A stretch of DNA of 64,000 nt, from positions 9,278,607 through 9,342,606 of the forward strand of contig NW_003526941.1 of NCBI RefSeq assembly GCF_000181795.1, read 5' to 3'. Shown in pieces: positions 5,432 to 50,780 of this stretch. Below the pieces are notes generated by a model. It saw nothing but the letters and a program-made list of their open reading frames with translations. It was not told the origin of the DNA and searched no databases. Made by a program: the position numbers and the translations under genes. Source of the stretch: Trichinella spiralis. Its lineage: Eukaryota. Numbering within the stretch: position 1 is the first letter of the stretch; every line of letters starts with the position of its first letter.

Positions 5432-6333
5432 TTCAATTTAGATTTTTTCCATTACAATAACTTTTGTGCTTTCATTTTAGGTATTTAAATTTCGATTATT
5501 CAGCTTTGCTTTCCTGATGAGCCGTGTTAGCCGATTCGTCATACTTGCCGGCAGATGTACGTACAACAGCAAAACCAATCTAGCAAACAACTTAACACAA
5601 CCAATTAAACACAACCAAGGTTTTATTTATACTTGTAAAAAGTGATTTTCTACATTTTCATCTCATTTTGTGCTCACAGACAGTAGCTTATACTATTTGT
5701 ATGTTGCTTTATTTCTGCAGTTCTTTTTCTTTTATTTTCTCAAAAATTCCATTTATACTCTTTCTAATTTTTGGAAAATTCTCCCGTATAGTTTATTTTG
5801 AGTTTGAGAAAACTCATAAATTGATAAATTTATTTTTACAAATACACAATATATTCCTTCAATATTATAAATTATCATAATAATATTATACATTTAAGTG
5901 CCATACTAACTCGGCGCCTTATTTTCCACTAGGTAAACATAACCTTGGTCAGAAAATTATATATTTAGTAATATGATGGTGAACACTGCCGACGGCATTC
6001 TGCTGAATGCATTTTATGTTATTCAAATTTTGAAGAGATTTCCTACATACAAAAGTCAGCTTATTATTTGACTATATTGCTGATGAAGAGACTGCGTTGC
6101 GTTATTTATTATTTGGTCATTTTTAGTGCATCATTTCTACAAATTCCACGTAAATGCTGAACAAAACATGCTGTTAATCACGAGCAGCTGGATATTTCAA
6201 CGGTTCTACCTATATCAGCGTCTACTTACTTTACTACCAACGGTCCTACTGCCAGGTATGAAGTTTTACTTATTTGTTGTTCTATCTTTATTAGTTTCTA
6301 TCATAATTTTGATCTTTCTTAACTCCCGGTCCA
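5432..6333 (+). repeat. Repeat arm A, inverted copy at ~23362-24265
   Basis: Reverse-complement match, e.g. 5470-5530 vs 24160-24222. The ORFs 6126+ and 23337-23567 are near-identical with scattered substitutions. The arm ends at the gap at 6334. Confidence 0.9.
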
Positions 6334-6343
6334 NNNNNNNNNN
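6334..6343. other. Scaffold gap (10 N)
   Basis: Run of N. Confidence 1.
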
Positions 6344-9300
6344 TCGCACAAATGCACATTCCACTTCACTTGAACCATCACAGGCTTCGGAGCAAAAGCT
6401 GGATACAACGACTTGTTGCAAGGGACGCAGAGCACTTCACACGACGATTCCAATACATCTACTGGCCACAAATGGTCGTAAACGTGGTAAGCCTGAAAAA
6501 TTTCTTTTCGTTTTCTTTACTTCTTCCATGCCAGTAAATTGTGTTACCGCTTTTGTTAAATCACAAGCTAACAGCCAAATACCACCGGATAAAATGCGCA
6601 CTGTACCCTTCGAATCAGCTGTGCAACAATTTCCTTTCTCTGTCACGCTATGAATGGGGTAAATATTATTTATTATTGAATAATGTGGTTGCTTTTTTTT
6701 GGAAATACTGAAAGAAATTTGTCAACTCACCACAGCCAAGTAAGAGTGGCTCCAGCGCTCAACGCCACTGCATAAGTTCCGAGCAGTTGGATCTTGTCTC
6801 CTACACTTTCGGTAGACCAGTTGAGAGCGTACAAGGAACAACGTAACGATGCTTGTTGACCGATGAAAGCTGAATTTTTACTTTTATTTTCATGCAAACA
6901 AATATCATTCAACGCCACATGCTTGCGTAAGTGATAAACTAATAAGTAAGTACTTGTTCCTTCTTTGTAAACGACGGCCAGTCGTTCACCTCTTGCAGTC
7001 ATGGTAACTATGGAACCATTTAAACAGCTAGTCCACAACGGGAAACCAGACAACGTGTAGACACGCAACAGCAATTTGTTGGACACAAACGCAACCCAAC
7101 CTTTGCCAATGCACAAACACTGCAGCAGATGTTGAATGTTACGATTGAAAAAGATAAAGGTATAAAGTATGGTTGATTGTATGTGTCAGAAAGGAAAAAC
7201 TTTACTTCAACACTTTCTGATTCAGGTAAATCTGCCGACCATTCTTTCGAAGCATCCCAAGAAGCGAAATGAGCGACGAAAATTTGACTGAACAATTTTA
7301 TTTTTTAAAAAAAAAAGTTTTTTCTCTTTGTTTCCTTCACATGTACCTGTTATTTGTGGCTGTTTTCGCAGAGGCGAATGCTATCGCTTCATCGGATAGA
7401 TCTCCGGCAAAAAATTCCGTAACTGCATTATCAAAATGGAGAGAATGATGAACAGACGGATCGTGAAATTCGACATCTATACCGTCCAGTTCACCGGAAA
7501 TTTGTTTCACCACTCCGAAGGCATTCCATTTCTGAAGAAAAGAGAAAAGAAATGTGAATAAGTAATTAATTGCATGAATTAGAAAATTACCATATAGCGT
7601 TTCTGATGATTGAGAGGTGTAGAAGCAGAGGCAAACGGTTTCAGTTCTGTCGATTTTGCCCACTTTTTAAAAATATGCAACATTTGCTCTTCAGAAAACA
7701 CTGCTGTTCCACCACCACCACCACCAGCAGGTGTACCGGCATCTTCGCTCAACTGCGTCATAAATTGAGATTTTATTGCTCCAAGATCGAAATCTTAATC
7801 AAAAACAAATTTCAATCATTTCTTTTTTTTAGATTGTGAAAGTTTCTATTTATTTGTTCTCTACCTTTGGAATCCTCGTCGTCAATTATAGCAATTTTAC
7901 GACCAACTGATAAAGCTGTTTCTGTATCTTTTTCATTCGCTGCTGTACTGTTCAAATTTTTCCACACACCAACGCAACCTTCTATATCTGCCAGCAACAA
8001 CGAGTCTTGTTCAAATGTATTCCAAATCATATCGGCCATAGTTTTCGATGTAGTTTCTCTGGAAAATATGGAAATACCTGAAGTTAGCTAACAAGCGGCT
8101 GAAAGAAGACCAGCAGTGAGAAGTTTTACTTGAAAAGGCAAGTCGACGTAACGACATCGTATATACACAATGAACCATCCATGTAAGCCGCCGCTAGCAT
8201 TTTCCCGCTCGGATCAAACACGCAGATACTACACGGCTAAAACATGAACTTCATTTAGAATGGAAATGAAAATATTCGGTAATGTGTAGTAGTTTGAGTG
8301 ATAATGAATTTTAATTCAAATGTCAAACTTTCTTACACTTGTTACATTTTCACATTGCAACTCCGATTTCAGATTCCAAGATTCTCTGGTGTACAGTTTG
8401 ACCACATTTTCAGATGGAACGGCCAAGAGCTTGAAATAGTATCAATGCAATCAGTAAAAAGTAACCCTCATAATGCAGTCAGTCTTACTTCGCTGGAATT
8501 TGGTGACCAGTCTATTTTAAGCATTGGATCTGACAAGCTGAAATGAAATTTTTATTCCATATTTGCCAACAATGAACCATCAGTCTGGATACCTACCTGA
8601 ATTCGGAAGAACTTTTCAATATTGGCAAGGATTTCATGCACTGGCTATCCGAAAGTCGCCATATTTTCACGCAGCTATCACACGAAGATGTAGCGGCGTA
8701 TGTTTCCGATGAATCCACCGCGACACTGAGCACAGGGCCACCGTGCCCTTCCAGAGAAGTGAATGACTTGTCCTCCACATTAACATACTTTACCGTGAAA
8801 TCACTGTAAAACATGAACAAAATTTCTGAATTAAAATACATTTCACTGTTTTTTTTCAGCCGTATCATTGAAAAAGGCAAAATCATAATGCGATATTAAC
8901 TTTTTTCAACAGTAAGAAATGTAATAATCTTACCAGCTGGAGACGAGAATATGGGTACCTGTGGGTGAAACGACGATTCTGGTAATTGGAAGAGAACAAC
9001 GAGTCACGGTGCATACGAACTCTCCATTAAGTAAATTGTATTCGTTTACGGTATTCGTTTCAGTTGCGACAAAAGCACGATTTCCCTTGAAAAATATTTC
9101 GATTTCACGTCAAGCCAGTCGAAAACAAACACAGACGGCAATTCATACTGAACAAGCAACGGCAGTGATACATTCAGTAATATCGTATGTTCTTGTTTCT
9201 TCCTGTTCGAAGTCTTTCCACGCTCGAATTTGACCATCTTCACCAGCGCTGATTATCAACCTAAAAAAATGTACATGAAAAGTTGTTTGCTAACATCAGA

Positions 9301-9403
9301 CATCAGCATAATTAATTATTTAATTTTACCGTTCTTCAGAATTCAGCGATAAACTCACTATTCCAGAAATATGGCCAAAACGAAATGGAACAAGCGATGC
9401 CAT
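6344..9403 (-). CDS. WDHD1: WD repeat and HMG-box DNA-binding protein 1 (AND-1/Ctf4) homolog, multi-exon, 3' end truncated at assembly gap
   Basis: Start MASLVPFRFGHISG at 9403. WD40 repeats (IISAGEDGQIRAW, LEGHGGPVLSVAVD...CVKIW). SepB-domain signature KPFASASTPLNHQKRYM/KWNAFGVV...DVEFHDPSVHHSLHF, then HFASWDASKEWSADLP and LLRVYTLSG. Exons are bounded by GT/AG. Confidence 0.85.
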
Positions 9404-9838
9404 CACTTCGAGCAGTCTGCGCGCCAATTCTTTCGGTACAGTAATATATTTATATATGATAATTAAGGTAACATTTTATAACTTTGGAATTGTCGTGTAA
9501 ATTTCGAAATAATACACTGAAAAATTGCATTGAACTTGCATTCAGTTATACGTATATATGATCCGCTTTGCTACATTTGCTTGGTAAAGATTTTGCATAC
9601 TGTAGCTGCCCTTGACCCGTAATATATTTGAAAAATTTTGAAATTTATAATTTTCATATAAATTCATGTATTCAATATAAGTTAAATTAATGAAATGTTT
9701 TGAAAATTTTAATTATAAATTTATAAATATCAGCTGAAATTTTAAACGTTCATGGTCGATTTTCTAAATTTGTACCTACTTTTTAAAAGAATAACCGTGT
9801 TTCTCTTGTATTCTAGAAAGGGAAAATTTGGCGGTAAA

Positions 9839-11398
9839 ATGATGGCAGCAAATTCAAATAATTTAGCAAAATTGGTTATCCGAGCTTTATTATCAATTGT
9901 ATCATATTATTCGTCACAAAATAAGAATTGCTCATCTCCAGATTTGTTTGCTTTACGTTTTATCGAAGGTTAGTTGGTGTAATTGTCAATTTCAATCGCC
10001 TCAAAATTTAATTTCCGTAATTTTGCATTTTATTTTTTTCTCTTTTGATCTTATTAGGACAAAGTCCGTTAATTTTGAAAGAGAGCAACTTTATCCGCGG
10101 TGCATTTGAAAATGATCTGATCAAATTGCAAGAAAATGTTTCATTGTTAGCAGAAAGAAAGGTGCATTGCGTACGACAAGCAGATGCTGAAATATTTGCA
10201 AAGGTGCGATTTTATTAGCCGAAAAGAACAAGAGAAAAATTATTTCTCATTTCTGTTTTTAGACTGAGTATTTTTCTCGCCAATTTACATTTTTCCCAAA
10301 GCGTTTGAATTTACAGCCTGTTCGTCGTTGGCGCCAGTTATCTCCAGAACTAGCTGGTGATACTTCAAGCGACAGCTATGAAATATTGAAGTTTACATTT
10401 TTGAACTGCGTATCGAAGCTGAATCAGGTGATGAAGTGTTCGCAAATAAATGGCAAAGGTACGAAAACAGACCAGAGCTGCAATTGGACATGCGACGACA
10501 TACCTGAGGAATGTTATCGATATTTGTTGCACGAAAAGCGTTTGCAGTGTTCTCATTTGGTTGGTCGAGTTTTGCTGACAGTTGCATTTGAAGTGGTATT
10601 TGTTTCTTATTTTTAATTATATCTGTAATTTTTCCCTTATCTTCAACACAATCCATTCAGGCAAACTGTTTGCGGACGTTGCAAAATCATCTTCGTGAAT
10701 TGAAATTCCGTGATGGCCTTATCGATTTGCGAACCGAATTGTGCTCAAATCTATTTTATTTACTCGAAAATAGATATACCGCCCGACGTGAACCTGAAAA
10801 GCAAGAACCTTTGGGCTTGGCCATGCGTACGCTCACAGTTTTCTTTCTTAATTAATTTTTCTTTTTTGAAGATTTAATGTATATTTTTTTGCATATATAT
10901 AGAATTTGCATGTGGTCATTTGGGTTATTATGAATTTCTTCGATTAAGTTGGCTTCCTTTACTTATCAACGGTCAGCACGAAAGCGGGTGCTACACTTCT
11001 GCGGGAAGTTCAGGTAGAATTTCGATTGTTGGTTTTATATTACAGTACTGATCAATTTTTTTATTCTTATCTTTGTAGACAAATGTGATGCTTGGACTAC
11101 TTCACTTGCAAGTTTAGTACTCGTTTCCTATTTGAGATGTCTTGGTATGAATGCATGTGATGTTACAAGCGGTGCTGGTCGTCCATTTGAATATTACGGA
11201 GATCAGCAACCTGAACAAGTCTACAATAGAAGTGTCCTTCAAGAATTGGATATGATCAGTACGATGAATATCAAATTCAACAAGATCTCTGATTTCACAC
11301 TTTACTGGTTTATTTTGGCGGTGGCGCTTTTTCTTTTCATCAGCATCAAATTGCAAAGTAAGAAACGACCTTCGTCAGGAATCAAGCAGAAAGTTTAA
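9839..11398 (+). CDS. UPF0764/C16orf89-like protein with C-terminal transmembrane helix, ~6 exons
   Basis: Exon chain with GT/AG borders encodes SYEILKFTFLNCVSKL...YLLHEKRLQCSHL, CGHLGYYEFLRLSWLPLLINGQHESGCY and KCDAWTTSLASLVL, resembling the C16orf89 CG..G...F....WL..I...Q...GC motif. Ends in hydrophobic FTLYWFILAVALFLFISI plus a basic tail. Confidence 0.6.
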
Positions 11399-12559
11399 AT
11401 AAATAAAAGTAAGTGAATTTCTTTCTTTTTTTATATTTAATTATACTTTGATAAATACTACGTTTTGCACAGCAGATGATGTTAAGTTTGTGCATGTGTT
11501 TGTTTTTCTTTTTCATCTACTGGGTTTGTCAAAAGTGCATTTCTCTTACATTGATCATGCGCTACGTGAGTTCTACACTAGCACATTACAGTTTTAGTTT
11601 CTACAGCAGAGCTTAAATAGTAAATGTAATAAATGGAAAAGTATTTTAAAATTTGCAGAAATTCTGTTTTGAGAAATTTTTTTTTCTATTGTAATAATTG
11701 AGATAATTTTGAATATTTCGAATAAGGTTCGGTATGCGTAGATTTTTCTTCTGTGAAATTTAAATATATTATTTTTCCACATTGAAATATTCGGTATTTG
11801 TTATATAGAGAGGGAAATTTTTCAGCTTATTTATTTTTGTTTAAATGCTACAACTGAGCAGAAGTAGTTATAAAACTTTTGTTGTGAAAATATGAAGTTT
11901 TTGATTTATTCGAATAATATTGGAGAAAATTTTTGAAAGTAATTTATTATTTTTTATCAGTTGGTTTCTGTCTGTTTGTTTTCTCATGTGAGAAAAGGAT
12001 AAATTTCAAAGCAAGTTCATTGTTATTCAGCAGTTTGTATAGTAAATTGGAATTTTAAAATTCTCTCATGGCAGATTGCTAGCAAGTTTTGCATATTATG
12101 CTGCTGCAAGTATTGGATGAATAGAATTATTATGGTTTTGTTTTTATTTAAAATTCACTTTTTTTACTGATGAAAACGTTGAGGAGGAGAGTTGTCAAGT
12201 GGAAGAGCAGTGATTAATCGGTTATGCGCACAGTTTATTATATATATATTGCGTGGTTGGTTTGAATTTGTTGATGAAATGACGAATGCAATTGAAATAT
12301 TTCAATGGTTATATTGTATTTTTAATTTGCCCAACTTAACTTGAAAAATGCATGATGCAGAAAGAATTGCAGTTTGATTAGAGTTTAGTGAAGTTCTGAT
12401 GCTGTGATTATTATTGAATGACCAGTGAAGTTGATATGAAACTTATTTCCAGACATTAGATGTCTTCCTTGAGCATCCATGCATCCATATTCTTGAATGC
12501 TGATCTATTGCTACCTTGTCTAGACAGAGTAGCATTGTCTCTTAAGCTGTGTGCCGAGA

Positions 12560-12569
12560 NNNNNNNNNN
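12560..12569. other. Scaffold gap (10 N)
   Basis: Run of N. Confidence 1.
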
Positions 12570-13503
12570 TTTCTATGTAAAAAATTATCAATATGTTTTC
12601 ACATCCCTATATATTAAAGTGAGATTATTTATCACTTGCTGCAGTTCGTCCGTCAAAATTCTATTCTTGCTCCGTTCAAAAAATCATTTCTTCACTAATA
12701 CGCTGTAATCTATTGTGCCGGCGAGATTTATCATATTCTCTGAATTTATGTGATCAATTGAAATCATTAATGAAAAAACCTTTTCTCTTCAACTATTTGA
12801 AATTTTATGCTCAATAGCTTAGCTATTTTTTGAAGAATGAAAACATTTTCTTAAAATGTTAGATTATAATTGATAAATTCAACGTGGCGTGCGATGCAAA
12901 ATTTCTGTGAACATAATCCACTGAATTTTGAATAAATAGCATGTAAATTTTGCACGATGCTTGCATTACAATATAGCAAATAGTGCCATTTTCAAACATT
13001 CTTTAACCACAACACTTATGCGTGATTTTCCGCAATTGATATAGACGTCGCGTTAGAGTAGTGCACTTGATAAAAATGAATGCACTTCTGCATTTCTTCA
13101 TTTGCAGAACATCTAGACAACTTTCAGCACAGTTTATGACAGTTGATTAGAATTTAAAAAATATTTCATTTATAATTTTCCCGTTAAATGTATTAATTCT
13201 GACAATCAACTGAAATGAATTTCTGAAAATAATCATATGCTCTATTGATTAATACTTGATTTTCTTAACGTAATCATTACAAGCTTTGGGATTGTCCAAA
13301 AATCCATGATTTTGTGCATTAATATGCTTATTATCAACTTTATGATTCCCTTAACTTTACATTGAAACTAAATATGTCGTTATTTTAATTTTCTTTCGCT
13401 TTTTCAAACATTATTCATTGCTTTTTTAAAAGTTCACTTTAAATGTAATAGTTTGCGATGGAAATGCACGCGAAATGCGACTAAAAATAAATAAATTAAC
13501 AAG
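12570..13503 (+). repeat. Repeat arm B, inverted copy at 20971-21903
   Basis: Essentially identical reverse complement (ends TTCTATGTAAAAAATTATC and TAAATTAACAAG both match; one 1-nt indel seen). Each copy abuts a gap. Confidence 0.92.
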
Positions 13504-13879
13504 TCATGTCAAATTTATGTAAATACTCTCAGTATTTATTGGATTAGTTTTGAGATATCTGCTTGTAACATCCATAATACAAATGGCATAGATTTCAAAA
13601 ACTGTAAAAAATTCTTAATGGTTAGTGGACGAGTGCAATTGATATTATACAATTTAGGTGCACTGCAATTTTCAATAATATGAAAGCGTTGATTTTATGA
13701 GAAATTTGGTAAATCACCTTGTTAAAATGAATAACATTTTACAGAAGAAATGAAATGATCACTGCAATAAGTTTTATATAAAAACCCATCATTTTGAATG
13801 ATTGTTAGTTAGAAAACGATATTTAATAAAGAAATTCCATAGGCAAAAAATGTTATATTGTAGACATGCTGTAATTATA

Positions 13880-14375
13880 AAAAAAATCAGGAACAATTGT
13901 TCGTAAAATAGCAGTTTTTTCAGCTGATAAAATCAGAAATTTTTGAATAAAAGTTATCAAAATGTTGTTTCTCAATTTATTATTGTAATTTATTTATTTT
14001 CTGTCGTACTATGCCCTCTAAAATCCTATTCTTGTCCCGTTTTCATGAGTAGTTTTTTGACAAATATGCCATTGGAAATTTCGCTAACAAGATACGCCAT
14101 GTTTTAAAAATTTTCCTGATTGATTGATACCATTTTAGCAAAGATTTCCTTTTCGAATAAACTTAGCTGTTTTTTGAAGCTTGAAAGAGGTTTATATAAA
14201 TTTCGGTTGTAATCGATACATGAATGCAAATTAGCAAACTGTCAAAAATTTGTATCAACATAATCTGAGGAACTTTGAATATATAGCATATAAATTTTCA
14301 CATTGATTATATCACAGCAAAGCAATGCTACCTTTCCAAACATTCTTCAACCACGCCCCTGATGCGTAATCTTTA
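13880..14375 (+). repeat. Diverged direct paralog of part of arm B
   Basis: Colinear shared blocks: CTATTCTTG, CTTAGCT.TTTTTTGAAG, AACATAATC...TTTGAAT..ATAGCAT.TAAATTTT, CAAACATTCTT.AACCAC. GGAACAATTGTTC is shared with ~21940-21955 (inverted). Confidence 0.65.
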
Positions 14376-15509
14376 GTAAATCAAACTGAATGAGCATTCT
14401 ACTAAAATATCTGTTTATAAGAATAGCGTTTTCGGTTTATATTAATGTTTTTCAACAGCTTTTTATTTTTTGTTTCAAGAAAAAACAGGTTGAAACGTCA
14501 GTTAAACAATCAGTTTACTGAAATTATTATTGTTAATGTCGCCGATCGTCGAACCGACGTTCCCTTCATCCTTGAAAATGACTCCTGAAAAATTTTATAA
14601 TTTCATTGTATTGTGAATTACACTGACTTATACATCTAAGTCACCGTTTTTGCACTTGTTTTTTCCTCTCATTGAGAAAATAACTCCATCTCCACTAATG
14701 TTTGTAGTATTGATAGATGGACGACAACGCCTGATCATTGGTACATTAAGGTTGAGTAAAGGAAAGCGATTCACTTTATTTATAGCAACCTTCACATCCT
14801 CCATCCTGCAACTTCTCCTTCCTACCTTCTTCCGTTGCTGTCCCGCCATGCTTTCTTTTCTAATGATCCCCATCATCGAGCAGTTAACGATGCTAACTTG
14901 AGCACAAATCGCGCTCAACTGAAAACTCTATCCACCCCATATTTCGAGCTGAATGAACTGCGCTTAGCTATTGCGACCAGATATAAATCTGATGATTTCT
15001 CCAAACTGCTATCTACTCGCCATATTTTCTTACTTATAAAGGCGATATTGCTTAACCCTGGCTATTTCTGATGCTTTTCTTTTATTCTTTTCATAAACTG
15101 CAATGGACAATGGTCACCCGCAGAATTTTCTTGAAGTTATTTTGCAAAAGCATAACCGTTTACCATCACGATGCGTCACTCGTGAAATTCTGTGCTGAGG
15201 TAAATTGCACGTTACACAATTTCTGGAATTATCATCATAAAATTTCATGTAAACGGTTTTATTTTCTATAAATCTTAAAACGTATTTCATTATCGAAACT
15301 ATTTTTACTAGATGACATTTTTTTATTATCTATATAATTTTGATTTGAAGAAAATCATTGGTAAAATATAAATTATTGTATCACCTCCTACTTTCAAGCA
15401 TCAAAATTCTTTCAACGCAACAAAAGCATTTCCGGTTATTTTTCGTAATTTTCAATGCCTCTGGTTAATAAATTTTCGTTTCAGCTAATTTCAGTAAAAT
15501 AAATTTGCA

Positions 15510-15567
15510 TAATAATGCTATGTTACGTAATAATGCAATATTACGTAGTAATGCAATACTGCGTAAT
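15510..15567. repeat. Short imperfect tandem repeat, ~18 bp x3 (TAATGCAATATTACGTAA-like)
   Basis: Directly visible. Confidence 0.7.
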
Positions 15568-16486
15568 TATATGAACTGTGTAAATAAAAACGTAATAAAT
15601 TTCATCATCTCGTTTAATAACGATGTTCATAACATTCATTCCACTGCGTTATTACTGACGGAAAATTAGGTTGTTCTTCCGGAGGCAAAGTAAATAGTCA
15701 TTTGCATAATTTACTTAATATTATACATTTAAACAGCACTTTGTTACATTAGGTTATTCAGTTGACTGCAGTGCTATCAGTCATGTGCGTGGTCAACTAT
15801 AATTCCGCTCCTCAACACCAACAATGAAATATCGGTAAGTTGGATTTGATAATGTTGTGGTGGTATGCTATGCATGTCATTTGCATCACTTTACTAATAT
15901 GGTGAATGGAAACTGACGGGTTTCTTTTCTATTGTTGTTATTGCTGACTTTCAGGTACATCAGATGCTGGAGAAGAAGAAGTACGTATTTCAGTTTTTTA
16001 TTTTGAGATTGCTGCATTAATATAATTTACTTTCAGAATTATATCAATGAATATGAAATAAACTGATTCTGAAAAGTAAGTAATTGAATATGGTTCCAAT
16101 GCATCGAAATAATTTTGCACTCTTTTTTATTTGTAATATGTTCATTTTTGTTTAATTGAGATTGTAGGCTAGCTACGCCATTAGCACCACATTACTTTGT
16201 AAAGACTGAAGGTAAAATTATTTCAATTTATATAACACTGCATTAATAACTTTTTAGGAAATTTCAACTTTCCTTATTCATTATCTCACTGCTCACTTTT
16301 CTTATTCATTGTTACATGACAAATAATGCAGCGATATTACCGGTATGTTTATACTTTTTGTACACTTTACTTAAACTATCAATAGCAGTTAATATTAAAC
16401 CTATATGAAAAAGCCCTATTATGAAAAGTATAACTTTTCAGAAGAAAAGATGAATAACAGTGCATCATAATTTTTGAATTCCATTC

Positions 16487-17650
16487 ATTTTGTAATCTAA
16501 TATTTTATCTTTGTTTTATTATTTTTTTAGTTTAACCATCTCTCTGGATGTTTCCATTGCGGTCTGTCATGTTCCTTCATCAGCTCCCCTTTCAGGATTA
16601 CCTCATCGTCAGAGTAAGATTTCATGCGGTTTGGAATTGCAATAGGTTACGTTCACGCAGTAGAACAGTTTCAGTTAGCTTGAATTTCATTCGTTTTTGA
16701 TCTGATGTATTTTTTTGATTTACTTAATCATTTTTTTTAGTTGAATCATCAACATGTCGATTTTTCTATCGTAAAAGACAAGTGTCCCAATTGTTCCTTT
16801 TATTTCCTAATTGTAAGAGTAAGAATGAATTTGATTTCTTTGACGTAATCTATTTATACGATGAAGAATATTTAAGAGGTTTGGATACACAGTACAATGT
16901 GCTACATTGGTTGGTTGAGCCGGCAGATTTGAGTATTTCACGTGTATTAAATTAGATAACATCTCTAATAACACATTGCATCATCTCAGCTGAACTGTTT
17001 TGGAGTTTTTTTCGCTCTGGACACCGTGGTATATCAGGATCATCAATTTGCTTGAATTTGCTGCTAATTGCAGTTCGGTATTTTGTATTTTGTAATCTAA
17101 TACTTTATTCTTTTAGTTTACCCATCTTTTTGAATGTTTCCATCGCGGTCAGTCATGTCCCTTCAGCAGCTCCCCTTTTAGGATTACCTCATTGTCAGAG
17201 TAATAATGAATTTCATGCGGTTTGTAATTGCAATTGGTTACGTTCAAACAGTGGGGCAGTTTCAGTTATCTTGAATTTCATTCGTTTTTGATCTGATGTA
17301 TTTCTTTGATTTACTTAATCCTTTTTTAGTTTAATCATCTCATTGTCGTTTCTTCTACCGTAAAAGACAAGTGTTCCAATTCTACCTTTTATTTTTTAAT
17401 TGTAAGAGTAAGAATGAATTTGATTTCTTTGACGTAATCTATTTATACGATCAAAAAGGTTTGGATACACAGTACAATGTGTTACACTGGTTGGTTGAGC
17501 CGGCAGATATGAGTATTTCACGTGTATTCACATCTCCAATAACAGATTGCATCATCTCAGCTGAACTGTTTTGGACATTCTTTCTCTCTGGACACCGTGG
17601 TATCTCAGGCTCATCAATATGTATGAATTTGCTGATTGCAGTTCGGTACG
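16487..17650 (+). repeat. Two diverged tandem units of ~590 bp (16487-17080, 17087-17650); 16522-17240 is arm C with an inverted copy at ~20215-20960
   Basis: Repeated blocks such as CAGCTCCCCTTT.AGGATTACCTCAT, GGTTTGGATACACAGTACAATGTG and CATCATCTCAGCTGAACTGTTTTGGA. The ORFs 17052+ and 20122-20433- share their first ~47 aa. Confidence 0.9.
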
Positions 17651-18143
17651 TTTAGTGTACAGATTTTGTTCATGATATCAGCAATGGATTTTTTCATATC
17701 TTCAAACTGCGACATTTCTTGTGATGGCGCTGTGAGTTGAAATTGTCGGTTCATTCCCCAGTGTTCCCAGTGTGATTTCACTTATCATGAGTAAGTCCCA
17801 TCATGGTTTCACTTATCAATAATGATTGTAATTTTAGCAGATTACGTTAAGAGTACGTATGCATCCTTGTAACGTACAGGTGCACTGGATTACGTCGTCC
17901 CGTAAAGCGTGTACTGATGCCAACGCGTTCACCTGGACATAAAGGCGTTTTCTAGATGCCCCAATGTGCCTTTGCTTACCACAGAAAGTAAGCATCGAGC
18001 TCCTAATTGCTGTACAGTTGTGATCACTTTGCTATTCTATGTATGTATATGTATATGCGTTTTCCGTTATTTCCGTTATTGACTTTCACTGTTTTTTAGA
18101 TGTCAAATCGCCAGTCGCATGCCGTTTGTCGTCCTTGATTGTC

Positions 18144-18400
18144 CAGGTAATCTGAAGGTTTAGGCAACCCTTCAGAATTAGATGATCATCCGGCATTCTG
18201 GTACCGCCCAGGTAAGCAGAGTAAAGGTAAGCAGAGTAAAGGTAAGTATGATAGCGCAGGTGAATAGAGTGAACGTAATGGTAAGTATGTCAGCGGATTC
18301 GTATAGAATAGAAATAGTCGACGAGGTAAGTATGAAGCATAGGTGAGTAGTGGACAAGGTAAGTATTTCTGGTAAGTAAAGGTAAATGGACAAGGTAAGT
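18144..18400 (+). other. Array of ~12 5' splice-site-consensus motifs (G|GTAAG / G|GTGAG / G|GTAAA)
   Basis: GT at about 18147, 18212, 18227, 18242, 18260, 18281, 18326, 18343, 18359, 18372, 18382 and 18394, with mostly non-repetitive purine-rich spacers. Confidence 0.85.
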
Positions 18401-18439
18401 CTGTGACGGGAAGGGGTGAACAAGTGGTAATAAGAGTAT

Positions 18440-18968
18440 AAAAAAGTCAATATGCAAATTTCTAAAAAAACCATTGAACACAGAAGCAATGAAACACCCT
18501 CAGGTGGTTTATGCAAATTTTAAATCGCCTGGGGAAAATATGCAAATTTTTATTTGCCCTGAGGCGTAGCCTGAGGCAACGCCTGGGGCTAAATTTCTGA
18601 AAAACCGAAATTTTTTGAAAAAATGCCTGAGGCATAGCCTGGGGCGTAGCCGGAGGGCATTAAAAATTTGCATATTACCCCCAGGCAATTAAAAATTTGC
18701 ATAATCACCCCTTAAGGTCAAATATTGTGCAAAAAATCGCCCTTGGCGTAGCCTAGGGGCAATATGCAAATTTTATTTGCCCTGAGGCGTAGCCTGAGGC
18801 AACGCCTGGGGCTAAATTTCTGAAAAATCGAAACTTTTTGAAAAAATGCCTGAGGCATAGCCTGAGGCGTAGCCTGAGGGCATTAAAAAATTTGCATATT
18901 ACCCCAAGGCAATTAAAAATTTGCATAACCAACCTTTAAGGGCAAAATAATGGTATAGCCTAAGGCTG
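18440..18968. repeat. Tandem of two ~224-bp imperfect palindromic units built from ATGCAAAT and GCCTGAGGC-type motifs
   Basis: 18538-18720 repeats at 18762-18945. ATGCAAAT at 18452, 18511, 18540, 18764 and ATTTGCAT at 18666, 18695, 18890, 18919. GCCTGAGGC at 18569, 18625, 18792, 18848, 18860, plus variants at 12-bp spacing. Confidence 0.9.
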
Positions 18969-19065
18969 TATTTTGAATTCGAAATTTTCAGTGATACTCT
19001 GTAGTGATTCATTTACGTGATTCCTTCAAGTGATGTACTTCATGTAGATGTGATATCCCTCTACA

Positions 19066-19153
19066 TCACTTACCTGACTTACCTTTTCATTTATACTTAC
19101 CTATTCCCTATATACTTACCTTCATACTTACCTTCCCTTTCGTAGACTTACCG
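19066..19153 (-). other. Array of 6 5' splice-site-consensus motifs (GGTAAGT on the minus strand)
   Basis: ACTTACC on the + strand at about 19068, 19077, 19095, 19114, 19125 and 19146; five are ACTTACCT (AG|GTAAGT). Confidence 0.85.
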
Positions 19154-20214
19154 TTACTTTCAGTTGAACGCAACGTGGCTGTTTGCATAGCCATGTTGCG
19201 ATTTAAAATCTAAAAGATCCTATAATACTTTCCTAAACGTACCTGGAAAACCTTCAAAACTCTGGTACCATAACGATTGCAAATGGATATCTGAAAAGGA
19301 ATAAATACCTGATAAACTGATAAACGTATATAAAAGTAATATGTACTTATAGTAGAGTATCACGTCATTCAAACAAGCAGTAACGCTTTCAAGTAACGCA
19401 TATTCAATAACGCAGTTACCAAAGAATGCCACTTCATCTAACAATTGTAATTTAGATTGTAAAAGTAGAGGATGGTAAAATTGATAAAACATCCATATTA
19501 TAAAAAGGAATTGACAATTCTTTCTTACTCTGTGATAAGCCATGTAGGACTGTTGGGAGACGTATTTGCCTAAACAAACACAGAGTGACATCGGCATTGT
19601 AGTCGGGGAATGATGCAATCCACAACCATAATGAACAGAATCTGCACTTACTGAATTTTGACATACCACTTTGGGAACGTCCTGATAGTAGCTCGCACTA
19701 ACGGTATAATTTACACGGACAACAGCGCTGATCGACTGTATTGCAATTCGATAACTGCTACCATTACAATCGTCTTCTTCTTATTCACCTTCTTCTTACT
19801 CTTATGATAAGCGAACCACAGCGGGAGGGTTCAGAAACGCTACTACGCCACCTTCAACTAACGCTGAGCGCCATCAGTAGGAATCCCATATCAGTTTGAA
19901 GGTGCTGATATCATCCATTACTATAATAATCAAAATGTGCACTGAATTATTTTTGTGATGACAGAATTAGAAAGCACTGAGGCAAACTTATCACAATGGA
20001 AAGAACTCATAAACAGTTCGACTGAAATGGCATTATCTGTTACTATTATAAATGTTATATAAATTTAATATAAAATTATAAATCTAAATATATCTAATAA
20101 TGTATGCTGCTTGTTGTCTAATTAAACAAACCGATTACTTACTGAATTTTGAAATACCTTTTGAAAGCGGTTATGGAAAGTCGAACTACCATCGTGGAAG
20201 TACAAGTACATTGA

Positions 20215-20960
20215 AACTGTTCTGTTGACGTAACCAATTGCACGTAACTTATTGCAATAACAAACCGCATGAAATTCATTATTACTCTGACGTTGAGGTA
20301 ATCCTAAAAGGGGAGCTGCTGAAGGGACATGACTGACCGCGATGGAAACATTCAAAAAGATGGGTAAACTAAAAGAATAAAGTATTAGATTACAAAATAC
20401 AAAATACCGAACTGCAATTAGCAGCAAATTCAAGCAAATTGATGATCCTGATATACCACGGTGTCCAGAGCGAAAAAAACTCCAAAACAGTTCAGCTGAG
20501 ATGATGCAATGTGTTATTAGAGATGTTATCTAATTTAATACACGTGAAATACTCAAATCTGCCGGCTCAACCAACCAATGTAGCACATTGTACTGTGTAT
20601 CCAAACCTCTTAAATATTCTTCATCGTATAAATAGATTACGTCAAAGAAATCAAATTCATTCTTACTCTTACAATTAGGAAATAAAAGGAACAATTGGGA
20701 CACTTGTCTTTTACGATAGAAAAATCGACATGTTGATGATTCAACTAAAAAAAATGATTAAGTAAATCAAAAAAATACATCAGATCAAAAACGAATGAAA
20801 TTCAAGCTAACTGAAACTGTTCTACTGCGTGAACGTAACCTATTGCAATTCCAAACCGCATGAAATCTTACTCTGCCGATGAGGTAATCCTGAAAGGGGA
20901 GCTGATGAAGGAACATGACAGACCGCAATGGAAACATCCAGAGAGATGGTTAAACTAAAA
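20215..20960 (-). repeat. Repeat arm C' (inverted copy of 16522-17240)
   Basis: Reverse-complement identity with a few substitutions (e.g. CATCGTCAGAG vs CATCGGCAGAG), diverging towards 20215-20295. Confidence 0.9.
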
Positions 20961-20970
20961 NNNNNNNNNN
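20961..20970. other. Scaffold gap (10 N)
   Basis: Run of N. Confidence 1.
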
Positions 20971-21903
20971 CTTGTTAATTTATTTATTTTTAGTCGCATT
21001 TCGCGTGCATTTCCATCGCAAACTATTACATTTAAAGTGAACTTTTAAAAAAGCAATGAATAATGTTTGAAAAAGCGAAAGAAAATTAAAATAACGACAT
21101 ATTTAGTTTCAATGTAAAGTTAAGGGAATCATAAAGTTGATAATAAGCATATTAATGCACAAAATCATGGATTTTTGGACAATCCCAAAGCTTGTAATGA
21201 TTACGTTAAGAAAATCAAGTATTAATCAATAGAGCATATGATTATTTTCAGAAATTCATTTCAGTTGATTGTCAGAATTAATACATTTAACGGGAAAATT
21301 ATAAATGAAATATTTTTTAAATTCTAATCAACTGTCATAAACTGTGCTGAAAGTTGTCTAGATGTTCTGCAAATGAAGAAATGCAGAAGTGCATTCATTT
21401 TTATCAAGTGCACTACTCTAACGCGACGTCTATATCAATTGCGGAAAATCACGCATAAGTGTTGTGGTTAAAGAATGTTTGAAAATGGCACTATTTGCTA
21501 TATTGTAATGCAAGCATCGTGCAAAATTTACATGCTATTTATTCAAAATTCAGTGGATTATGTTCACAGAAATTTTGCATCGCACGCCACGTTGAATTTA
21601 TCAATTATAATCTAACATTTTAAGAAAATGTTTTCATTCTTCAAAAAATAGCTAAGCTATTGAGCATAAAATTTCAAATAGTTGAAGAGAAAAGGTTTTT
21701 TCATTAATGATTTCAATTGATCACATAAATTCAGAGAATATGATAAATCTCGCCGGCACAATAGATTACAGCGTATTAGTGAAGAAATGATTTTTTGAAC
21801 GGAGCAAGAATAGAATTTTGACGGACGAACTGCAGCAAGTGATAAATAATCTCACTTTAATATATAGGGATGTGAAAACATATTGATAATTTTTTACATA
21901 GAA
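20971..21903 (-). repeat. Repeat arm B' (inverted copy of 12570-13503)
   Basis: Reverse-complement identity. Confidence 0.92.
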
Positions 21904-23361
21904 ATTTTAAATCTTCTCAGCTGAGAAAATTGCGCATTTCAGAACAATTGTTCCTGATTTTTCGTTTAGGCTTTACAGAACCCGTAAATTTACGAATTTT
22001 TGATTTACACAATCCTGTTTCTAGATAATGGTTTAGAAATGATAATTATTCGAAATGATAACTGCTAATTGCATATCTAAAGCGTGATGATTCTCAAGTA
22101 TGATGCTCATTCAGAATTTATATCCTCTGCAAACAGTCACACTGAAAAACCATATAAAGCGAAAGCAGAAAAGCATTAATAAATAGACTGAAAATAAAAG
22201 CAAATAGTCACAGGTTTGATAAACCTGAGATCCTCAAATGATATTGTTACGATCAGAATAGGATTCCAATAATGACAATTCAAGACAAGATATTCTAAAA
22301 TTTCATTTTCTCGGCAGATCAAGACTGTGCACTGCAATAATAATTGTTCTTGACTTCTGTTTAAGCATTACATCAACTATTTGCAATTAAGCAAATTCCC
22401 TAAATATTAATCATTCAGAAGAAATAGAGTTATTTTAAATTTGGTTGTTATAATAACAAATTATTATTAATATTACTTTGTTTGCTTCCTTTAGTTACAA
22501 CAACATGTTTTAACCCATTTGGCATGAGATCAACAATTGCGCATCATTTAAAATACATGTAATTCAAGTGTTCACAATATGATTTCCATTTCAGAATAAC
22601 CCATTTTATGGTTCGTTGCTGTTTTGCTATGTAACTGTTATGCAGATGTCTCAGTAGATTTGAATACATTCTACACTTGCATGATTTCAGTTGCTATAAG
22701 CTGTAAACTTATCTATTTTTATTCTATTTGATAATTGTTGCAAACAGAATATTTTGAAGTACATTTGAAAGAAGCATTACATTGTTCGAAGAAATAAGAA
22801 AATAAGTATTAAAAAGGATATGTTTCGTATCAGTAAAACGTTCTATGAACTTTGAAGACAACAATGAGCATTCTATTCAACGAAATTATTGTTTGCATTA
22901 CGAGAAGAAAACTTTCCGTCTGTACTTTGAGACAATCAGGTATTAATTGTATCAGTAGCAACAGTGATGGAATTTTGTATAAACAGATCGTAATAAATAG
23001 AGTGATAAACTGTGTGAAAATGAATGAGTTTTACGTTTGATGAGTAGTAAAAGTGTTTTTGAAAGTATCAATGAGGTAGAAAATATTTTTAATGAAAATC
23101 TTTCGATCACGTTTTACAAACGAGCATTGTAGTTTATATCTGAATTCCACATGTTGATCCTTAATTTCTTATTATATATTTGTATTTATTCAAAATAATT
23201 ATTATTCCCATTTCTGAATCACACTGCACATATTTCGTTATTGTGAAGTTGAAATGTATGTAATAAAATGCGAAATGTTTGATATAAAAAGTTTTAGTTT
23301 CAATTCACTAATGTTTAAAGTGTATGTGATCGTTCGCTAGTAAAAATGATCTTCTTCAATG

Positions 23362-24265
23362 GACCGTGTGTTAAGAAAGAAAAAAATTATGATAGAAACT
23401 AATAAAGATAGAACAACAAATAAGTAAAATTTCATACCTGGCAGTAGGACCGTTGGTAGTAAAGTAAGTAGACGCTGATGTAGACAGAACCGTTGAAACG
23501 TCCAGCTGCTTGTGATTAATAGTATTTTTTGTTCAGCATTTCCGTGGAATTTGTAGAAATGATGCACTGAAAATGACCAAATAATAAATAACGCAGCGCA
23601 GTCTCTTCATCAGCAATATAGTCAAATAATAAGCTGACTTTTGTATGTAGGAAATCTCTTCAAAATTTGAATAACATAAAATGTATTCAGCAGAATGCCG
23701 TCGGCAGTGTTCACCATCATATTACTAAATATATAATTTTCTGACCAAGGTTATGTTTACCTAGTAGAAAATAAGGCGCTGAGTTAGTATGGCACTTAAA
23801 TGTATAACATTATTATGATAATTTGTAATATTGATGGAATATATTGTGTATTTGTAAAAATAAATTTATCAATTTATGAGTTTTCTCAAATTCAAAATAA
23901 ACTATACGGGAGAATTTTCCATATATTAGAAAGAGTATAAATGGAATTTCTGAGAAAATAAAAGAAAAAGAACTGCAGAAATAAAGCAGCATACAAATAG
24001 TATAAGCTACTGTTCGTGAGCACGAAATGAGATGAAAATGTAGAAAATCACTTTTTAGAAGTATAAATAAAACCTTAGTTGAGTTTAATTGGTTGTGTTA
24101 AGTTGTTTGCTAGATTGGTTTTGCTGTTGTACGTACATCTGCCGGCAAGTATGACCAATCGGCTAACACGGCTCATCAGGAAAGCAAAGCTGAATAATCG
24201 AAATTTAAATACCTAAAATGAAAGCTCAAAACAAATTATTGTAATTGAAAAATGTAAATTGAATT
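23362..24265 (-). repeat. Repeat arm A' (inverted copy of 5432-6333)
   Basis: Reverse-complement similarity with multiple substitutions and small indels. Confidence 0.9.
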
Positions 24266-40155: not shown

Positions 40156-43100
40156 AAAAGCAATCAGTACCGATTTGCCGTATCTTCGAAACCTTCGAGC
40201 TGCTTGGAAATGACCATCTGCATGCCGAGCTGTTTTTGCATTTCTTTTTGCCTGGCTTCGAAAAACTCTTCGAGCACTTTGAGACGCGTCACCGCTTCCA
40301 TCGTCTGCATCTCCGCCTGCTGTTGGGCATTTTTCATCGAATCCCGTTCGCAGCGGAGCTGCTCCAATTCGGCTTCGACCGCCAATCTGCACCGTTGCTC
40401 TTTCTCGACTTCGGCGCGCATCTTTTCCAATTCTCCGTTCGACCGGCCCAACTGGGCGTACAATTTGGCCAAATCCAAGCCAACATCCACGTCGTCAGTC
40501 GGCTGTTCACTTCCTTCACAAACCCCCGTCGCCTCTTCGTCTTCTTCTACATTCCAGTCGGCAACGCCCTTCAACTGGTCGTTGGAACGTCGCCGACACT
40601 GCCACAATCTTTGGACCACCTCCTTCAGTCCGTGTATTTCGACTTTCGACGCCTCGAGTTCGGCCAACAACTGCCCTTCGCGTTGCTTCAATTCGACCGT
40701 CGAAGCCAGTTCCACTTCGCGCGACTGCAACTCTTCGACCAGCTTCTCGTTGCGACTCTTCTCCCATTCCAAATTGGCGTACAATTGTCGAATTTGTTCG
40801 TTCAACTGCTGCCGTTCAGCTTCGTGCCCGCGGTCCAGCTTGTCGGCTTCTTCTCGCAGTTCAACGAACCGTCGATCCGCGTCCTGCAATTGGCGATCCT
40901 TTTCGGCAATGGCCGCTTCCATCGCTTCCAGTCGACCCTCTTCCAAAAACTCACTACCCACCCCTCCACGAGCGTTTTCCAATTCACGACTGGCACGTAC
41001 CAGCTCGGCTTCGACACCCTTCAAAGCGGCATCTTTGCATTTCAATTCCGCCAATATGCGACTCTTCTCCTCTTGCAAATCGTCGGCCTGCTCCAACTTT
41101 TCCACCAGTCGCTCGTATTTGGAAAACAACCGCACATAATCGCTGTCGTTGGCGTAAACTTTTCGCTGCCAGCGTTTCCAAAGCAGACGATCGACCACGA
41201 AAACCATCAACGAAACGCAAGTCAAAATCAACAAACTCGAATCGTTCCAACCGAACGTCGTCGCTTTTGGAAGAAAAGTCTCCCCACTGGAGTCGTCAAC
41301 TGCGAACAACAGACTCCAGATGCTGGCAAATGCCCGTCGCGACTGGTCGAAATACAATTTCACACCTCGGATCAACAACGTCATGAGATCCGTCGAAGCG
41401 GGCATTTCAGGAACACCGACCACAGGCCGGCGGTTCGTCTCGTCGCACTGTTCCTCTTCCTTGTCGCACGTCTGCGATATCCAAGAATCTTCTCTTGGAA
41501 ATTCATCTGGAAAAGTTTCCTCAACTTTCACATTGTCATTGTCATCACTTGCATCATCAACTACGGAAGTGTAATTCGAAATCTCGCCACCCCCGGCAGC
41601 AGCACTACTGCTGCTTCTCGAATCATGATCATCATCATAAGACGAGCTAATGCTCAATTCTTTCTCTTCTTCTGAGCTTTTACCATCATCAGCAACAGCA
41701 CTGCTTCGTGAATCATGATGATCATCCGACGAGCTGACGTTCAACTCTTTCCCTTCTTCTGAGCTTTTACCATCACCACCACCACCACCACCAGCAGCAG
41801 CAGTACTGCTTTCTGGTCCATGATCAACATCAGACGAGTTGACGTTCAACTCTTTCCTTTCTTCTGATCTTCTACCATCATCAGCAACAGTACTGCTTCG
41901 TGAATCATGATGATCATCCAACGAGCTAACGTTCAATTCTTTCTTTACTTCTGAGCTTTCACCATCACCATCATCAGCCGCAGTACTGCTTTTTGGATCA
42001 TGATCTGTATCAAGCGAGCTGACGTTAAACTTTTTCCCTTCTTCTGAGCTTTTACCATCATCAGCAGCACTACCGCTTCTCGTATCATGATCATCATAAG
42101 ACGAGCTAATGTTCAATTCTTTCCCTTCTTCTGAACTTTTACCACCACCATCGGTAAAATTGTTCTCCTCTTTCAACTCATCTTTCATTTTATTCATCTC
42201 TTCTGTGAACAAACTGTCCCCATTCACAGCATCATCACCGGAAGGCAATTGCAAATTGTCGACGGTCGATTTTTGCAAATTTTTTGTAAGCTTCATGTCG
42301 ACACTTTTCACATCTTCCACCGGGTGATTTTTCAACTGAGAATCAACTTTGACCATATTTCTGTCCACTCCTGATTCTGCATTTTCAACAATTTTCGACA
42401 AATCGCTTAACGTTTCATTCAATTTCGAAGCATTGCCAATTTCTGCTTTGTCGGATGTGGCAGAAAAATTGGAAGCCGCAAACTGGTGCTGCTTCAGATC
42501 GTCGTCACCTTCCATACCGGGACCAGAACGTGCACTGCTAACGTTCGCATGTTCATCTTTTGCAACATCTGCATCTGATGAATGGCCATCATCACGCTGA
42601 ATATTGCTTTCTTCGTTCACTTGGCGTCGTTGTTCGTCAACCGGCAAAGCATCTCCATTCGCTTCTGCCAAATTTGGCAAAATTCCCTTCGATTTTCCAG
42701 TGCTACTGTTGGACAAAGTGGTCTGTAGAAAATCTTCAAATCGATCTTTGTCGTGCACAGTTTCACGGAAAATTGCCACATTTTCTTCAGAAGTGAAAAA
42801 TCGTCTCGCAGTGTCACTGCGAATTACCTGCACAAATTTCGCTCATAGAATAATCAAATGAGAACAATTCACAATTGCAAAACTCACTTGTCTACTGTGG
42901 AAATCTACCACGTACAAATTTTTATCTTCTTCTATAGCTGTTTCAATGAATTTTAAAAAGGCCGTAAAATTCAAACTTCTTGGAAAAATATGATCCTGAA
43001 AAGCACAATCAAAAATAAATACATACAGTTGTACGATCAACCGCAAACTACGCACTCAATTTGTACAGAAATATTTTTTTAATAATGTAAAAATTGAAAT

Positions 43101-47370: not shown

Positions 47371-48617
47371 TTTCAAAACTTTTTCTTCAACATGATATAA
47401 TGTTCAGTTAACGAGAATTTTGTAATCAAAAATTATAAATATATTTGTTCTGTCATAATATTTCAAAAAAAAAAATCAATTAAAATTTATTTTTAATTTC
47501 CTACGCACTGTTTGATATCAATATTGCGATAAAATTATTTCTGATCTTTCCGTTTTCAAACAAATTAATTTTGCTGCTCGAACAAACTCTGTTACCGAGA
47601 ATATAAGTTCCATTTAATGATAAAGATATTAAGGCGCACAAAACACAGTATTGACCAACAACAAATATTAAAATTTACAGTTAAAAATAAAACTCTTACT
47701 TAATGATGTTTTCGGTGTTTGTCCTTTTTTGTCACGCTGTTGTGCATCATACTGTAGTGTAGTAGCGTGATATTTTTAATGAAAATTATAAAAAAATTAG
47801 TGATGTTCAATTAGTGATTCAGTTTTTTGCTGCGTTCAGTGTAAGCTAATAACAACGTACTACATTAAGCTTCCAATATTGTCAGAAAATGCAGTTGCCA
47901 CTGCTTATCACGAATGCCACTAATTGAAGCCTGCAGTAATCGAGTAAGTAAACATTTGAAAAAATTTGAATAAATTAACGTTATCTTATTTTCTCTTTTC
48001 AACACAATCTACAGTTGTAGTATACTGCGTAAAAAATTACTGTTTCTTTTAATGTGCTGTAAAATTATTCATAGCATAAAGTGTCAAGAGGAGATTGATT
48101 GTATTTTCAGATCGCATTTGTTAAAGTCTATTAAAATTAAATTTAATATCTACGAGGTATTGCAATTAAGTAGCAGCTAATCTGCTTGCAAATAATCTCG
48201 TTTAATTCAGAATAAATTATTTGCCACAACTTTGTGATTCACGAGTATAATTTTACTGATTGTCTATTTTTATTGGTTTTCAACTATTTTTGTACGATTA
48301 TCAGACATAGAAATGTTTGTCATTTGTAAATTTCATTTGCGTATATACATATATAAAGCGAAATGTTATTTGCGCAAGCAATGAAAATATTTCAGTTGAA
48401 GTTCTTTCAATTTAAAGAGGCAATGAATAACAAGAATATATTTTATAAAAAATTTTTATTAAATTTAAATATAAAATGACATATTAATTTATAAGTGATT
48501 ATTAGTTAAAATAATACAATGATAATAATAATTGTAATAATAATAATGAAAAAACAGTAATTGAGAAATTGAAAAAAATTAGTTTCGTTAAGTTGGTTAA
48601 AATTGTCTTTAAAATTA

Positions 48618-50355: not shown

Positions 50356-50780
50356 GTTTCTCGTGTGGAAGAACATGGAAGAATGAATAGAGTTGTTAAA
50401 ACATGTTGCACATCAATGAGCAATTTAAACTAAAGCTGCTTTAAAATGTCATAAAATGTGAAGTTTTTTAATGTTTGAAAGTCGTTTGTTTAAATTGATT
50501 TTGGTGTAAATATAAATTTAATGTAAATCGAAATATAAATTTTTGGAATTTGCAGCTGATATAAATAAATTAAAATTGTAAATATAAAATATGTTGATTT
50601 GATTGCAGTATATGTCAACTGTTCTATTATAATTGTGTGCATTTTTAGTATGTATCAAATAAATTTGTTTGAAATAAGTTGTCGCAATAACTTCTGTTTT
50701 GAGATTGACAATTGAAAGTATTTTAATTTTTTTGCGCATCGATTAACTTAATTACTGAAAACAAAAAAAAATCTTGTTGT

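What the first reader, a model, noticed from the sequence alone, without database searches (positions are those of the whole stretch)
5432..24265. Nested inverted repeats reconstruct as one ~7-kb-arm palindrome collapsed by the assembler
Seen: order A(5432-6333) gap ... gap B(12570-13503) y(13504-16521) C(16522-17240) centre C'(20215-20960) gap B'(20971-21903) x(21904-23361) A'(23362-24265). Each gap lies where the partner arm has a single-copy segment: x is missing between A and B, and y is missing between C' and B'. The C/C' midpoint (~18.7 kb) coincides with the palindromic core. A/A' and C/C' carry substitutions, so they are not a pure assembly echo. Inference: the true locus is A-x-B-y-C / ~3 kb spacer / C'-y'-B'-x'-A', with near-identical arm interiors maintained by recent origin or arm-to-arm gene conversion. 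Read-through would give long dsRNA, a candidate hairpin/endo-siRNA source.
Basis: partly seen in the sequence, partly recalled or inferred. Interest (0 to 1): 0.72.

Follow-up and report, generated by a model that had tools for sequence, protein, structure and literature searches.

The report
Collapsed 17-kb palindrome in Trichinella
The mirror-image repeats in this Trichinella worm scaffold are likely the broken-up pieces of one real 17-kb DNA palindrome around two old, facing copies of a predicted worm-specific gene, with an unrelated 6-kb piece likely misplaced in a gap; such inverted gene pairs are known in nematodes, and a role in making silencing RNA is untested.

Summary
The repeats and three 10-N gaps are as described. 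The organism is Trichinella (T. spiralis-like). One unbranched 4.35-kb contig runs A'-end, x, B, y. No shown contig breaks at x|B, B|y, y|C or x|A', a pattern that in a toy graph only palindromic layouts give. B/B' is an assembler echo of one node. Arm depth is about 2x a single-copy gene (1.75, 2.6, 1.9), but x is 1x in one run. Two corrections. (2) The centre is not a unique spacer: its halves are old inverted paralogs, spliced towards a hairpin core, and about as deep as the arms, so further copies exist. Gene models of two other species follow the window's order from C' into the core, which suggests age and concerted evolution rather than recent origin. Hairpin or siRNA output could not be tested. 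Verdict: a real inverted duplication of a known kind, plus a scaffolding error.

The parts
5432..6333 (.). A: outer, diverged end of the left arm (95.2% to A')
   Evidence: an X3 contig joins the left flank to A and ends at 5497, 30 nt past an A-specific cluster of differences
6334..6343 (.). 10-N gap; inferred true continuation is the mirror of x
6344..12467 (.). foreign contig, likely mis-scaffolded: WDHD1 (And-1/Ctf4) aa 1-671 of 1012 on the minus strand (9403-6346), cut at the gap, plus a spliced plus-strand gene without a convincing Pfam hit
12468..12559 (.). 92-nt tail that no shown contig of the 4 runs follows
   Evidence: table 8
12570..13503 (.). B: arm interior, printed twice by the assembler (100% to B')
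13504..15348 (.). y, left part: arm interior, inferred two copies collapsed into one
   Evidence: depth 1.75, 2.64, 1.90 x the WDHD1 block
15349..15915 (.). very high-copy element inside y (bin depth about 100-200x the WDHD1 block); contigs break here
   Evidence: tables 2, 8
15916..17648 (+). 5' and middle exons (predicted) of a Trichinella hypothetical gene; includes C (16525-17247) and a tandem unit 16519-17080 / 17105-17648 at 86%
17649..18494 (+). centre-left: distal exons, one intron spliced on the plus strand (about 17791-17837), array of 8 GGTAAG donor-like motifs at 18211-18399
   Evidence: (table 5c)
18495..18950 (.). palindromic core: two tandem imperfect hairpins, high-copy repeat, with ATGCAAAT and GCCNNNGGC motifs; symmetry axis of the locus
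   Evidence: (z = -15.2)
18951..20237 (-). centre-right: diverged inverted paralog of centre-left, one intron spliced on the minus strand (about 19651-19570), array of 6 GGTAAG motifs at 19069-19152
20238..20960 (-). C': mirror of C
20961..20970 (.). 10-N gap; inferred to hide the mirror of y (3.0 kb)
20971..21904 (.). B'
21905..23359 (.). x: arm interior, inferred two copies in X1 and X3, apparently one in X6
23360..24263 (.). A': outer end of the right arm

Best explanation
The window shows a likely 17-kb inverted duplication (two arms of about 7 kb around a 3-kb diverged middle) that the assembler likely collapsed and printed piecemeal, with an unrelated WDHD1 contig likely dropped into the left gap. 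Shown: the repeats, the path x-B-y, the inverted homology of the centre halves, and splicing on opposite strands towards the core. Inferred: an old inverted duplication of a Trichinella multi-exon gene made a convergent pair around a high-copy hairpin repeat. Arm-to-arm gene conversion likely keeps x-B-y-C near identical while the outer end (A, 95%) and the middle (about 50-60%) drift. At least one more copy of the inner gene likely exists elsewhere or in tandem, which would explain the depth of the centre and could have supplied the false scaffold links. No RNA function is needed to explain the structure.
For: (4 of 24 listed runs laid; 32 of 1,324 pieces shown). X1 contig 5 (4,354 nt, 3 differences) runs 23479-20971 on minus, then 13504-15348 on plus. 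x|B is spanned in X1 and X3; B|y, y|C and x|A' in X1, X3 and X6. X1 and X3 both end at 23479 = A 6214, the first base after the longest cluster of A/A' differences. Toy graph: forks at 4 of 4 junctions for the assembled layout, 2 of 4 for one arm, 0 of 4 for palindromes. Depth against the WDHD1 block: B-y 1.75, 2.64, 1.90; 15916-16729 is 1.33-1.57 x B-y, fitting 3 copies to 2. Left-flank and right-flank genes share one 1,063,593-bp contig in a named T. spiralis record, and WDHD1 is on another. WDHD1 contigs run on 4,935, 2,078 and 5,019 nt past 6344 with no shown piece on A. Centre halves align inverted (score 130; 15 control segments -262 to -126). T. nativa model P0040 follows C', centre-right, core, centre-left; T. 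patagoniensis P0038 puts a y-end exon before C' (9 aa, E 0.09). The two arms share 54 of 56 residues with each other but 44-49 of 53-54 with other species.
Against: The tool states that contig depth is no copy number. Centre-right is about as deep as the arms (B-y/centre-right 0.95, 1.27, 0.89; one centre predicts 2); only centre-left in X3 fits (0.55 of B-y). In X3 the left-flank contig is 2.3x the WDHD1 block, and against that flank x and y are only 1.15-1.3x. In X6 x-A' is one unbranched contig at 0.99x. The X1 baseline is noisy (7.3-15). No contig crosses the high-copy element 15349-15915 or the core, so neither arm is shown end to end. The conversion test rests on automatic gene models, P0039's left-type call is weak (score 58 vs 40), and part of C' may be an echo of C. 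A named scaffold carries both WDHD1 and a copy of the inner gene (vs 25), so WDHD1 may lie near this region; that record may not be independent of the window.
Confidence: 0.6

Rival explanations
1. Larger amplicon: the two arms are inverted, but the middle holds two or more centre units in tandem, so the locus is longer than 17 kb.
For: Centre about as deep as the arms in X1 and X6. T. spiralis model P0037 continues after centre-left into further same-orientation copies of C and centre-left exons. The same fork-free topology arises (M3).
Against: Two full centres predict 15916-16729 at 2x the arms; observed 1.33-1.57. X3 centre-left is 0.55 of B-y.
Confidence: 0.2
2. x-B-y is single copy, at least in some isolates: contig 12570-20960 is flipped and overlaps the next contig by B, while A and C' are short separate duplicates. 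Copy number may vary between isolates.
For: X3 left flank 44.6 vs x 58.9 and y 51.2; X6 x at 0.99x; arms equal to the centre in depth.
Against: It predicts forks at y|C and x|A' (M2); shown contigs cross both in 3 of 3 DNA runs. It needs the WDHD1 block at half depth or less in all three runs.
Confidence: 0.12
3. A and A' are allelic haplotypes misjoined in one scaffold.
For: The runs differ from the window by about 0.4-1.3% at WDHD1, so haplotypes do diverge.
Against: A/A' differ by 5%. Their outer flanks are non-homologous and carry genes found on one contig in a named record. The X3 flank contig passes 5432 unbranched.
Confidence: 0.05
4. The layout is right as assembled, with small gaps and three separate short inverted repeats.
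For: It is the deposited order.
Against: WDHD1 lacks 341 of 1012 aa anywhere in the window. Contigs run x-B-y unbranched and leave the window at 6344 and 12467.
Confidence: 0.03

Closest known systems
Inverted paralogous gene pairs of Caenorhabditis, e.g. the convergent hsp-16 palindrome T27E4.8/.3/.9/.2 (Zhao et al. 2007, PMC1803023; parts 1-2 of 4 of the text read)
   Same: Convergent paralogs in mirror arrangement; arms more alike within a species than between species; middle diverges faster; gene conversion proposed.
   Different: Arms of about 7 kb, largely without recognised genes; a clade I nematode; inner gene of no known family; high-copy double-hairpin core with donor-site arrays facing it; copy number appears to vary.
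Mammalian X/Y palindromes with arm-to-arm conversion (search listing and abstract starts only)
   Same: Long near-identical inverted arms around a spacer; hard to assemble.
   Different: Those are over 10 kb and over 99% with a unique spacer; here the spacer is itself old inverted homology, and sex linkage is unknown.
Collapsed inverted repeat with a mis-scaffolded contig (general assembly knowledge, recalled)
   Same: Repeat interior printed once, identical overlap at gap edges, nominal gap size, foreign contig inserted.
   Different: Nothing essential.
Hairpin-RNA (hpRNA) endo-siRNA loci (definition from passages of PMC3212509); T. spiralis Dicer-type 23-25 nt siRNAs (passages of PMC4323106)
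   Same: Inverted arms and a strongly folding core could give dsRNA in a species with Dicer-made siRNAs and no piRNAs.
   Different: No read-through transcript or small RNA shown; the RNA seen is spliced on opposite strands. PMC4323106 proposes RdRP as the dsRNA source and reports that dense siRNA clusters are virtually absent.

Membership tests
Long inverted repeat with convergent paralogs | Two homologous arms in inverted orientation in cis | tested here: met
   met by topology, not by a spanning read
Long inverted repeat with convergent paralogs | Paralogous genes facing each other | tested here: met
   Inverted homology; one intron on each strand in run X16; the RNA could come from other copies
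Long inverted repeat with convergent paralogs | Structure conserved across species with arms more alike within than between species | tested here: inconclusive
   54 of 56 vs 44-49 of 53-54 residues; automatic gene models only, possible echo in C'
Collapsed two-copy repeat | About 2x depth over the interior | tested here: inconclusive
   B-y 1.75, 2.64, 1.90; x 1.75, 3.04, 0.99 against WDHD1; about 1x against centre-right and 1.15-1.3x against the X3 flank
Collapsed two-copy repeat | Unbranched interior with forks only at its ends | tested here: met
Classical palindrome with unique spacer | Single-copy, non-homologous spacer | tested here: not met
   Halves homologous; depth near that of the arms
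hpRNA / endo-siRNA locus | One transcript spanning both arms | not testable with these tools
   Only contigs available, no raw or long RNA reads
hpRNA / endo-siRNA locus | Dicer-sized small RNAs from the duplex | not testable with these tools
   No small-RNA run listed; supplements of PMC3212509 unreadable
hpRNA / endo-siRNA locus | Stable fold-back | tested here: met
   Core only: -220 kcal/mol, z -15.2, 0 of 100 shuffles; expected of any palindromic repeat

The most novel reading that the evidence does not exclude
The cassette is a dedicated dsRNA locus kept across encapsulated Trichinella: two convergent genes end in arrays of 5' splice-site motifs (8 on plus, 6 on minus, against 0.1 per kb elsewhere) facing a double hairpin. 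These arrays would favour read-through across the core and feed Dicer with siRNAs against a high-copy repeat and the gene family itself, in a nematode without piRNAs, with the palindrome maintained by conversion.
Probability: 0.12. Interest if true: 0.7.

Novelty: new member of a known kind. Interest (0 to 1): 0.4.

Why it matters
Practically, this scaffold is wrong at three gaps: WDHD1 is truncated and misplaced, and about 4.5 kb of arm is missing, which would distort synteny, gene counts and variant calls. Biologically, it extends conversion-maintained inverted gene pairs from Caenorhabditis to a clade I parasite, points to a copy-number-variable, lineage-specific gene family, and gives a defined place to test whether Trichinella makes siRNAs from fold-back or convergent RNA rather than only through RdRP.

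Tried and rejected
No whole genome is held, so genome-wide copy counts were impossible. Rfam: 0 matches at E<=1 over 4000-26500. Pfam: none for P0037-P0040 and two y ORFs, and none above cut-off for the six arm and centre ORFs. The run search reported no RNA holder listed on record; X16 is a guessed RNA run, though it shows spliced joints. In X16 the bins over A, x, B and left y have depth 0-2 against 150-290 over WDHD1; lack of cover in contigs is not used as evidence. The miRNA/siRNA supplements of PMC3212509 are unreadable and may hold small RNAs from this locus. Earlier scan findings: none. Literature searches (top listings only) showed no paper on this locus. Rejected: A as the 3' end of WDHD1 (no match for aa 672-1012). 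GC content as the cause of centre depth (centre-right 35.6% vs WDHD1 35.4% GC, yet about 2x). Partial WDHD1 models P0011 and P0012 end at the same exon as the window's gap; they may share an assembly history with the window and are not counted as support. Codon-position bias in the tandem exon unit gave no clear coding signal.
Full report
Observation. All three inverted pairs and the three 10-N gaps are present: A/A' 95.2%, B/B' 100%, C/C' 99.0%. The C/C' axis (18742.5) falls between two tandem imperfect hairpins that fold far better than shuffles (z -15.2). Homologues place the window in Trichinella; TANGO1 is 99% identical to a T. spiralis protein and 91% to T. britovi.

Between gaps 1 and 2 lie 6,216 nt carrying WDHD1 aa 1-671 of 1012, cut at the gap; the rest of the gene is nowhere in the window. 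Contigs of three DNA runs from three studies run on 4,935, 2,078 and 5,019 nt beyond 6344 with no shown piece on A, and contigs of all four runs leave the window at 12467 (32 of 1,324 pieces shown). In a named T. spiralis record the zinc-finger gene (left flank), TANGO1 and the receptor kinase (right flank) share a 1,063,593-bp contig, while WDHD1 is on a 1,021,255-bp contig. The block is therefore most likely mis-scaffolded, and the two flanks are in cis.

Topology of the arms. One X1 contig of 4,354 nt runs from 23479 through x and B' and continues as y to 15348 with three differences. Shown contigs cross x|B in X1 and X3, and B|y, y|C and x|A' in X1, X3 and X6. X1 and X3 both stop at 23479, which is A position 6214, directly after a cluster of 12 A/A' differences forming a 147-nt bubble (that such a bubble exceeds the assembler's popping limit is recalled, not tested). 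A toy k=31 graph predicts persistent forks at 4 of 4 junctions for the assembled layout, 2 of 4 for a single arm and 0 of 4 for palindromes. So B/B' is one node printed twice, and both A-type paths appear to lead into x. No contig crosses the high-copy element at 15349-15915 or the core, so the full arms remain inferred.

Depth. The tool warns that contig depth is no copy number. Against the WDHD1 block, B-y is 1.75, 2.64 and 1.90 and x is 1.75, 3.04 and 0.99 in X1, X3 and X6. This meets the 2x prediction for y and, in two runs, for x. Against it: centre-right is 1.84, 2.08 and 2.14, centre-left 2.23, 1.46 and 2.50, and the X3 left flank 2.3. The segment 15916-16729 is 1.33-1.57 times B-y. The simplest whole-number reading is WDHD1 1, arms 2, centre 2, inner 5' segment 3, meaning one extra copy of the inner gene. 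The X3 flank and X6 x stay unexplained; isolate-level copy variation is possible.

The centre. Its halves are homologous in inverted orientation down to the core (global score 130 vs -262 to -126 for 15 control segments; local 241 vs at most 128 in 20 shuffles). The guessed RNA run X16 shows joints at 17789-17838 and 19567-19651 that match GT-AG introns on the plus and minus strand, which means splicing towards the core from both sides, here or at paralogous copies. A 39-aa exon found 4 Trichinella hypothetical proteins among 1.84 billion, none with a Pfam family. P0040 (T. nativa) follows C', centre-right, core and centre-left in the window's order, and P0038 (T. patagoniensis) follows C', centre-right and core, with a short y-end exon in front. 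P0037 (T. spiralis) shows extra same-orientation copies and lies on a 579,249-bp scaffold, the same length as that of a WDHD1 model; this could be the source of the false links, or the same misjoin in a related assembly. Each half ends in an array of GGTAAG motifs facing the core (8 and 6; 13 elsewhere on both strands). The core carries ATGCAAAT and GCCNNNGGC motifs (their POU and AP-2 labels are recalled).

Mechanism. Shown: repeats, path x-B-y, foreign contig, inverted homology of the centre. Inferred: an old inverted gene duplication, arms homogenised by gene conversion, collapse in assembly. Over two exon blocks the arms share 54 of 56 residues, against 44-49 of 53-54 with other species, whose left-type and right-type models share 49 of 53-54 with each other. 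This fits concerted evolution but rests on automatic models, one weak type assignment and a C' that may be partly an echo. A second inverted pair in the window (FERM genes) has a 1.25-kb patch at 98-100% beside 57-89%, the pattern conversion would leave.

Comparison. The closest described case is the convergent and divergent inverted gene pairs of Caenorhabditis (PMC1803023, parts 1-2 of 4 read). T. spiralis makes Dicer-type 23-25 nt siRNAs without piRNAs, proposed to come through RdRP, with dense clusters virtually absent (PMC4323106, 12 of 21 passages seen). PMC3212509 (12 of 17 passages seen; supplements unreadable) names hpRNA as a class but reports antisense and transposon sources. The hairpin-RNA reading is possible for the core and for C/C' but untested. 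Seven literature searches listed nothing on this locus.

Verdict. Observation confirmed; interpretation partly supported. Interest 0.4.

Noticed in passing
window 27496-30351 and 47813-50647: Second inverted pair (FERM-domain ORFs, 88.6% overall): 98-100% over 28990-30239 but 57-89% over the 5' half, like a conversion tract. It brackets the receptor kinase and TANGO1, whose accession order in a named record (zinc finger 856, TANGO1 854, kinase 853) differs from the window's order, hinting at an inversion.
   Followed up: partly
window 8277-9816: Run X16 shows plus-strand GT-AG joints (8277-8372, 9270-9340, 9434-9816), the first two inside the minus-strand WDHD1 gene: a head-to-head antisense overlap of about 1.1 kb.
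   Followed up: partly
window 12468-12559: 92-nt contig tail (43% GC) that no shown contig of the four runs follows; likely a chimeric end.
   Followed up: partly
window 15349-15915: Very high-copy element (bin depth 1,284, 3,915, 17,411) with three ATTTGCAT sites just upstream of the inner gene; no Rfam match.
   Followed up: partly
window 16519-17660: In the tandem unit, predicted exons differ more than introns (40 of 302 vs 17 of 249 columns, Fisher p 0.016); exon borders are predicted only.
   Followed up: partly
window 22091-23850: Run X6 has one x-A' contig at 1x depth with 20 extra letters at 23281/23291, while B-y is 2x: possible structural variation between isolates.
   Followed up: no
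window 12818-13029, 13882-14373, 21445-21962: Older degenerate repeat (66-71%) shared by B, the edge of x and y.
   Followed up: no
window 41587-42152: Degenerate tandem repeats inside the TANGO1 coding region.
   Followed up: no
protein P0015: A 77-aa T. spiralis protein labelled as a toxin by its source has the same last 40 residues as WDHD1 models P0013 and P0014; likely a mislabel.
   Followed up: partly
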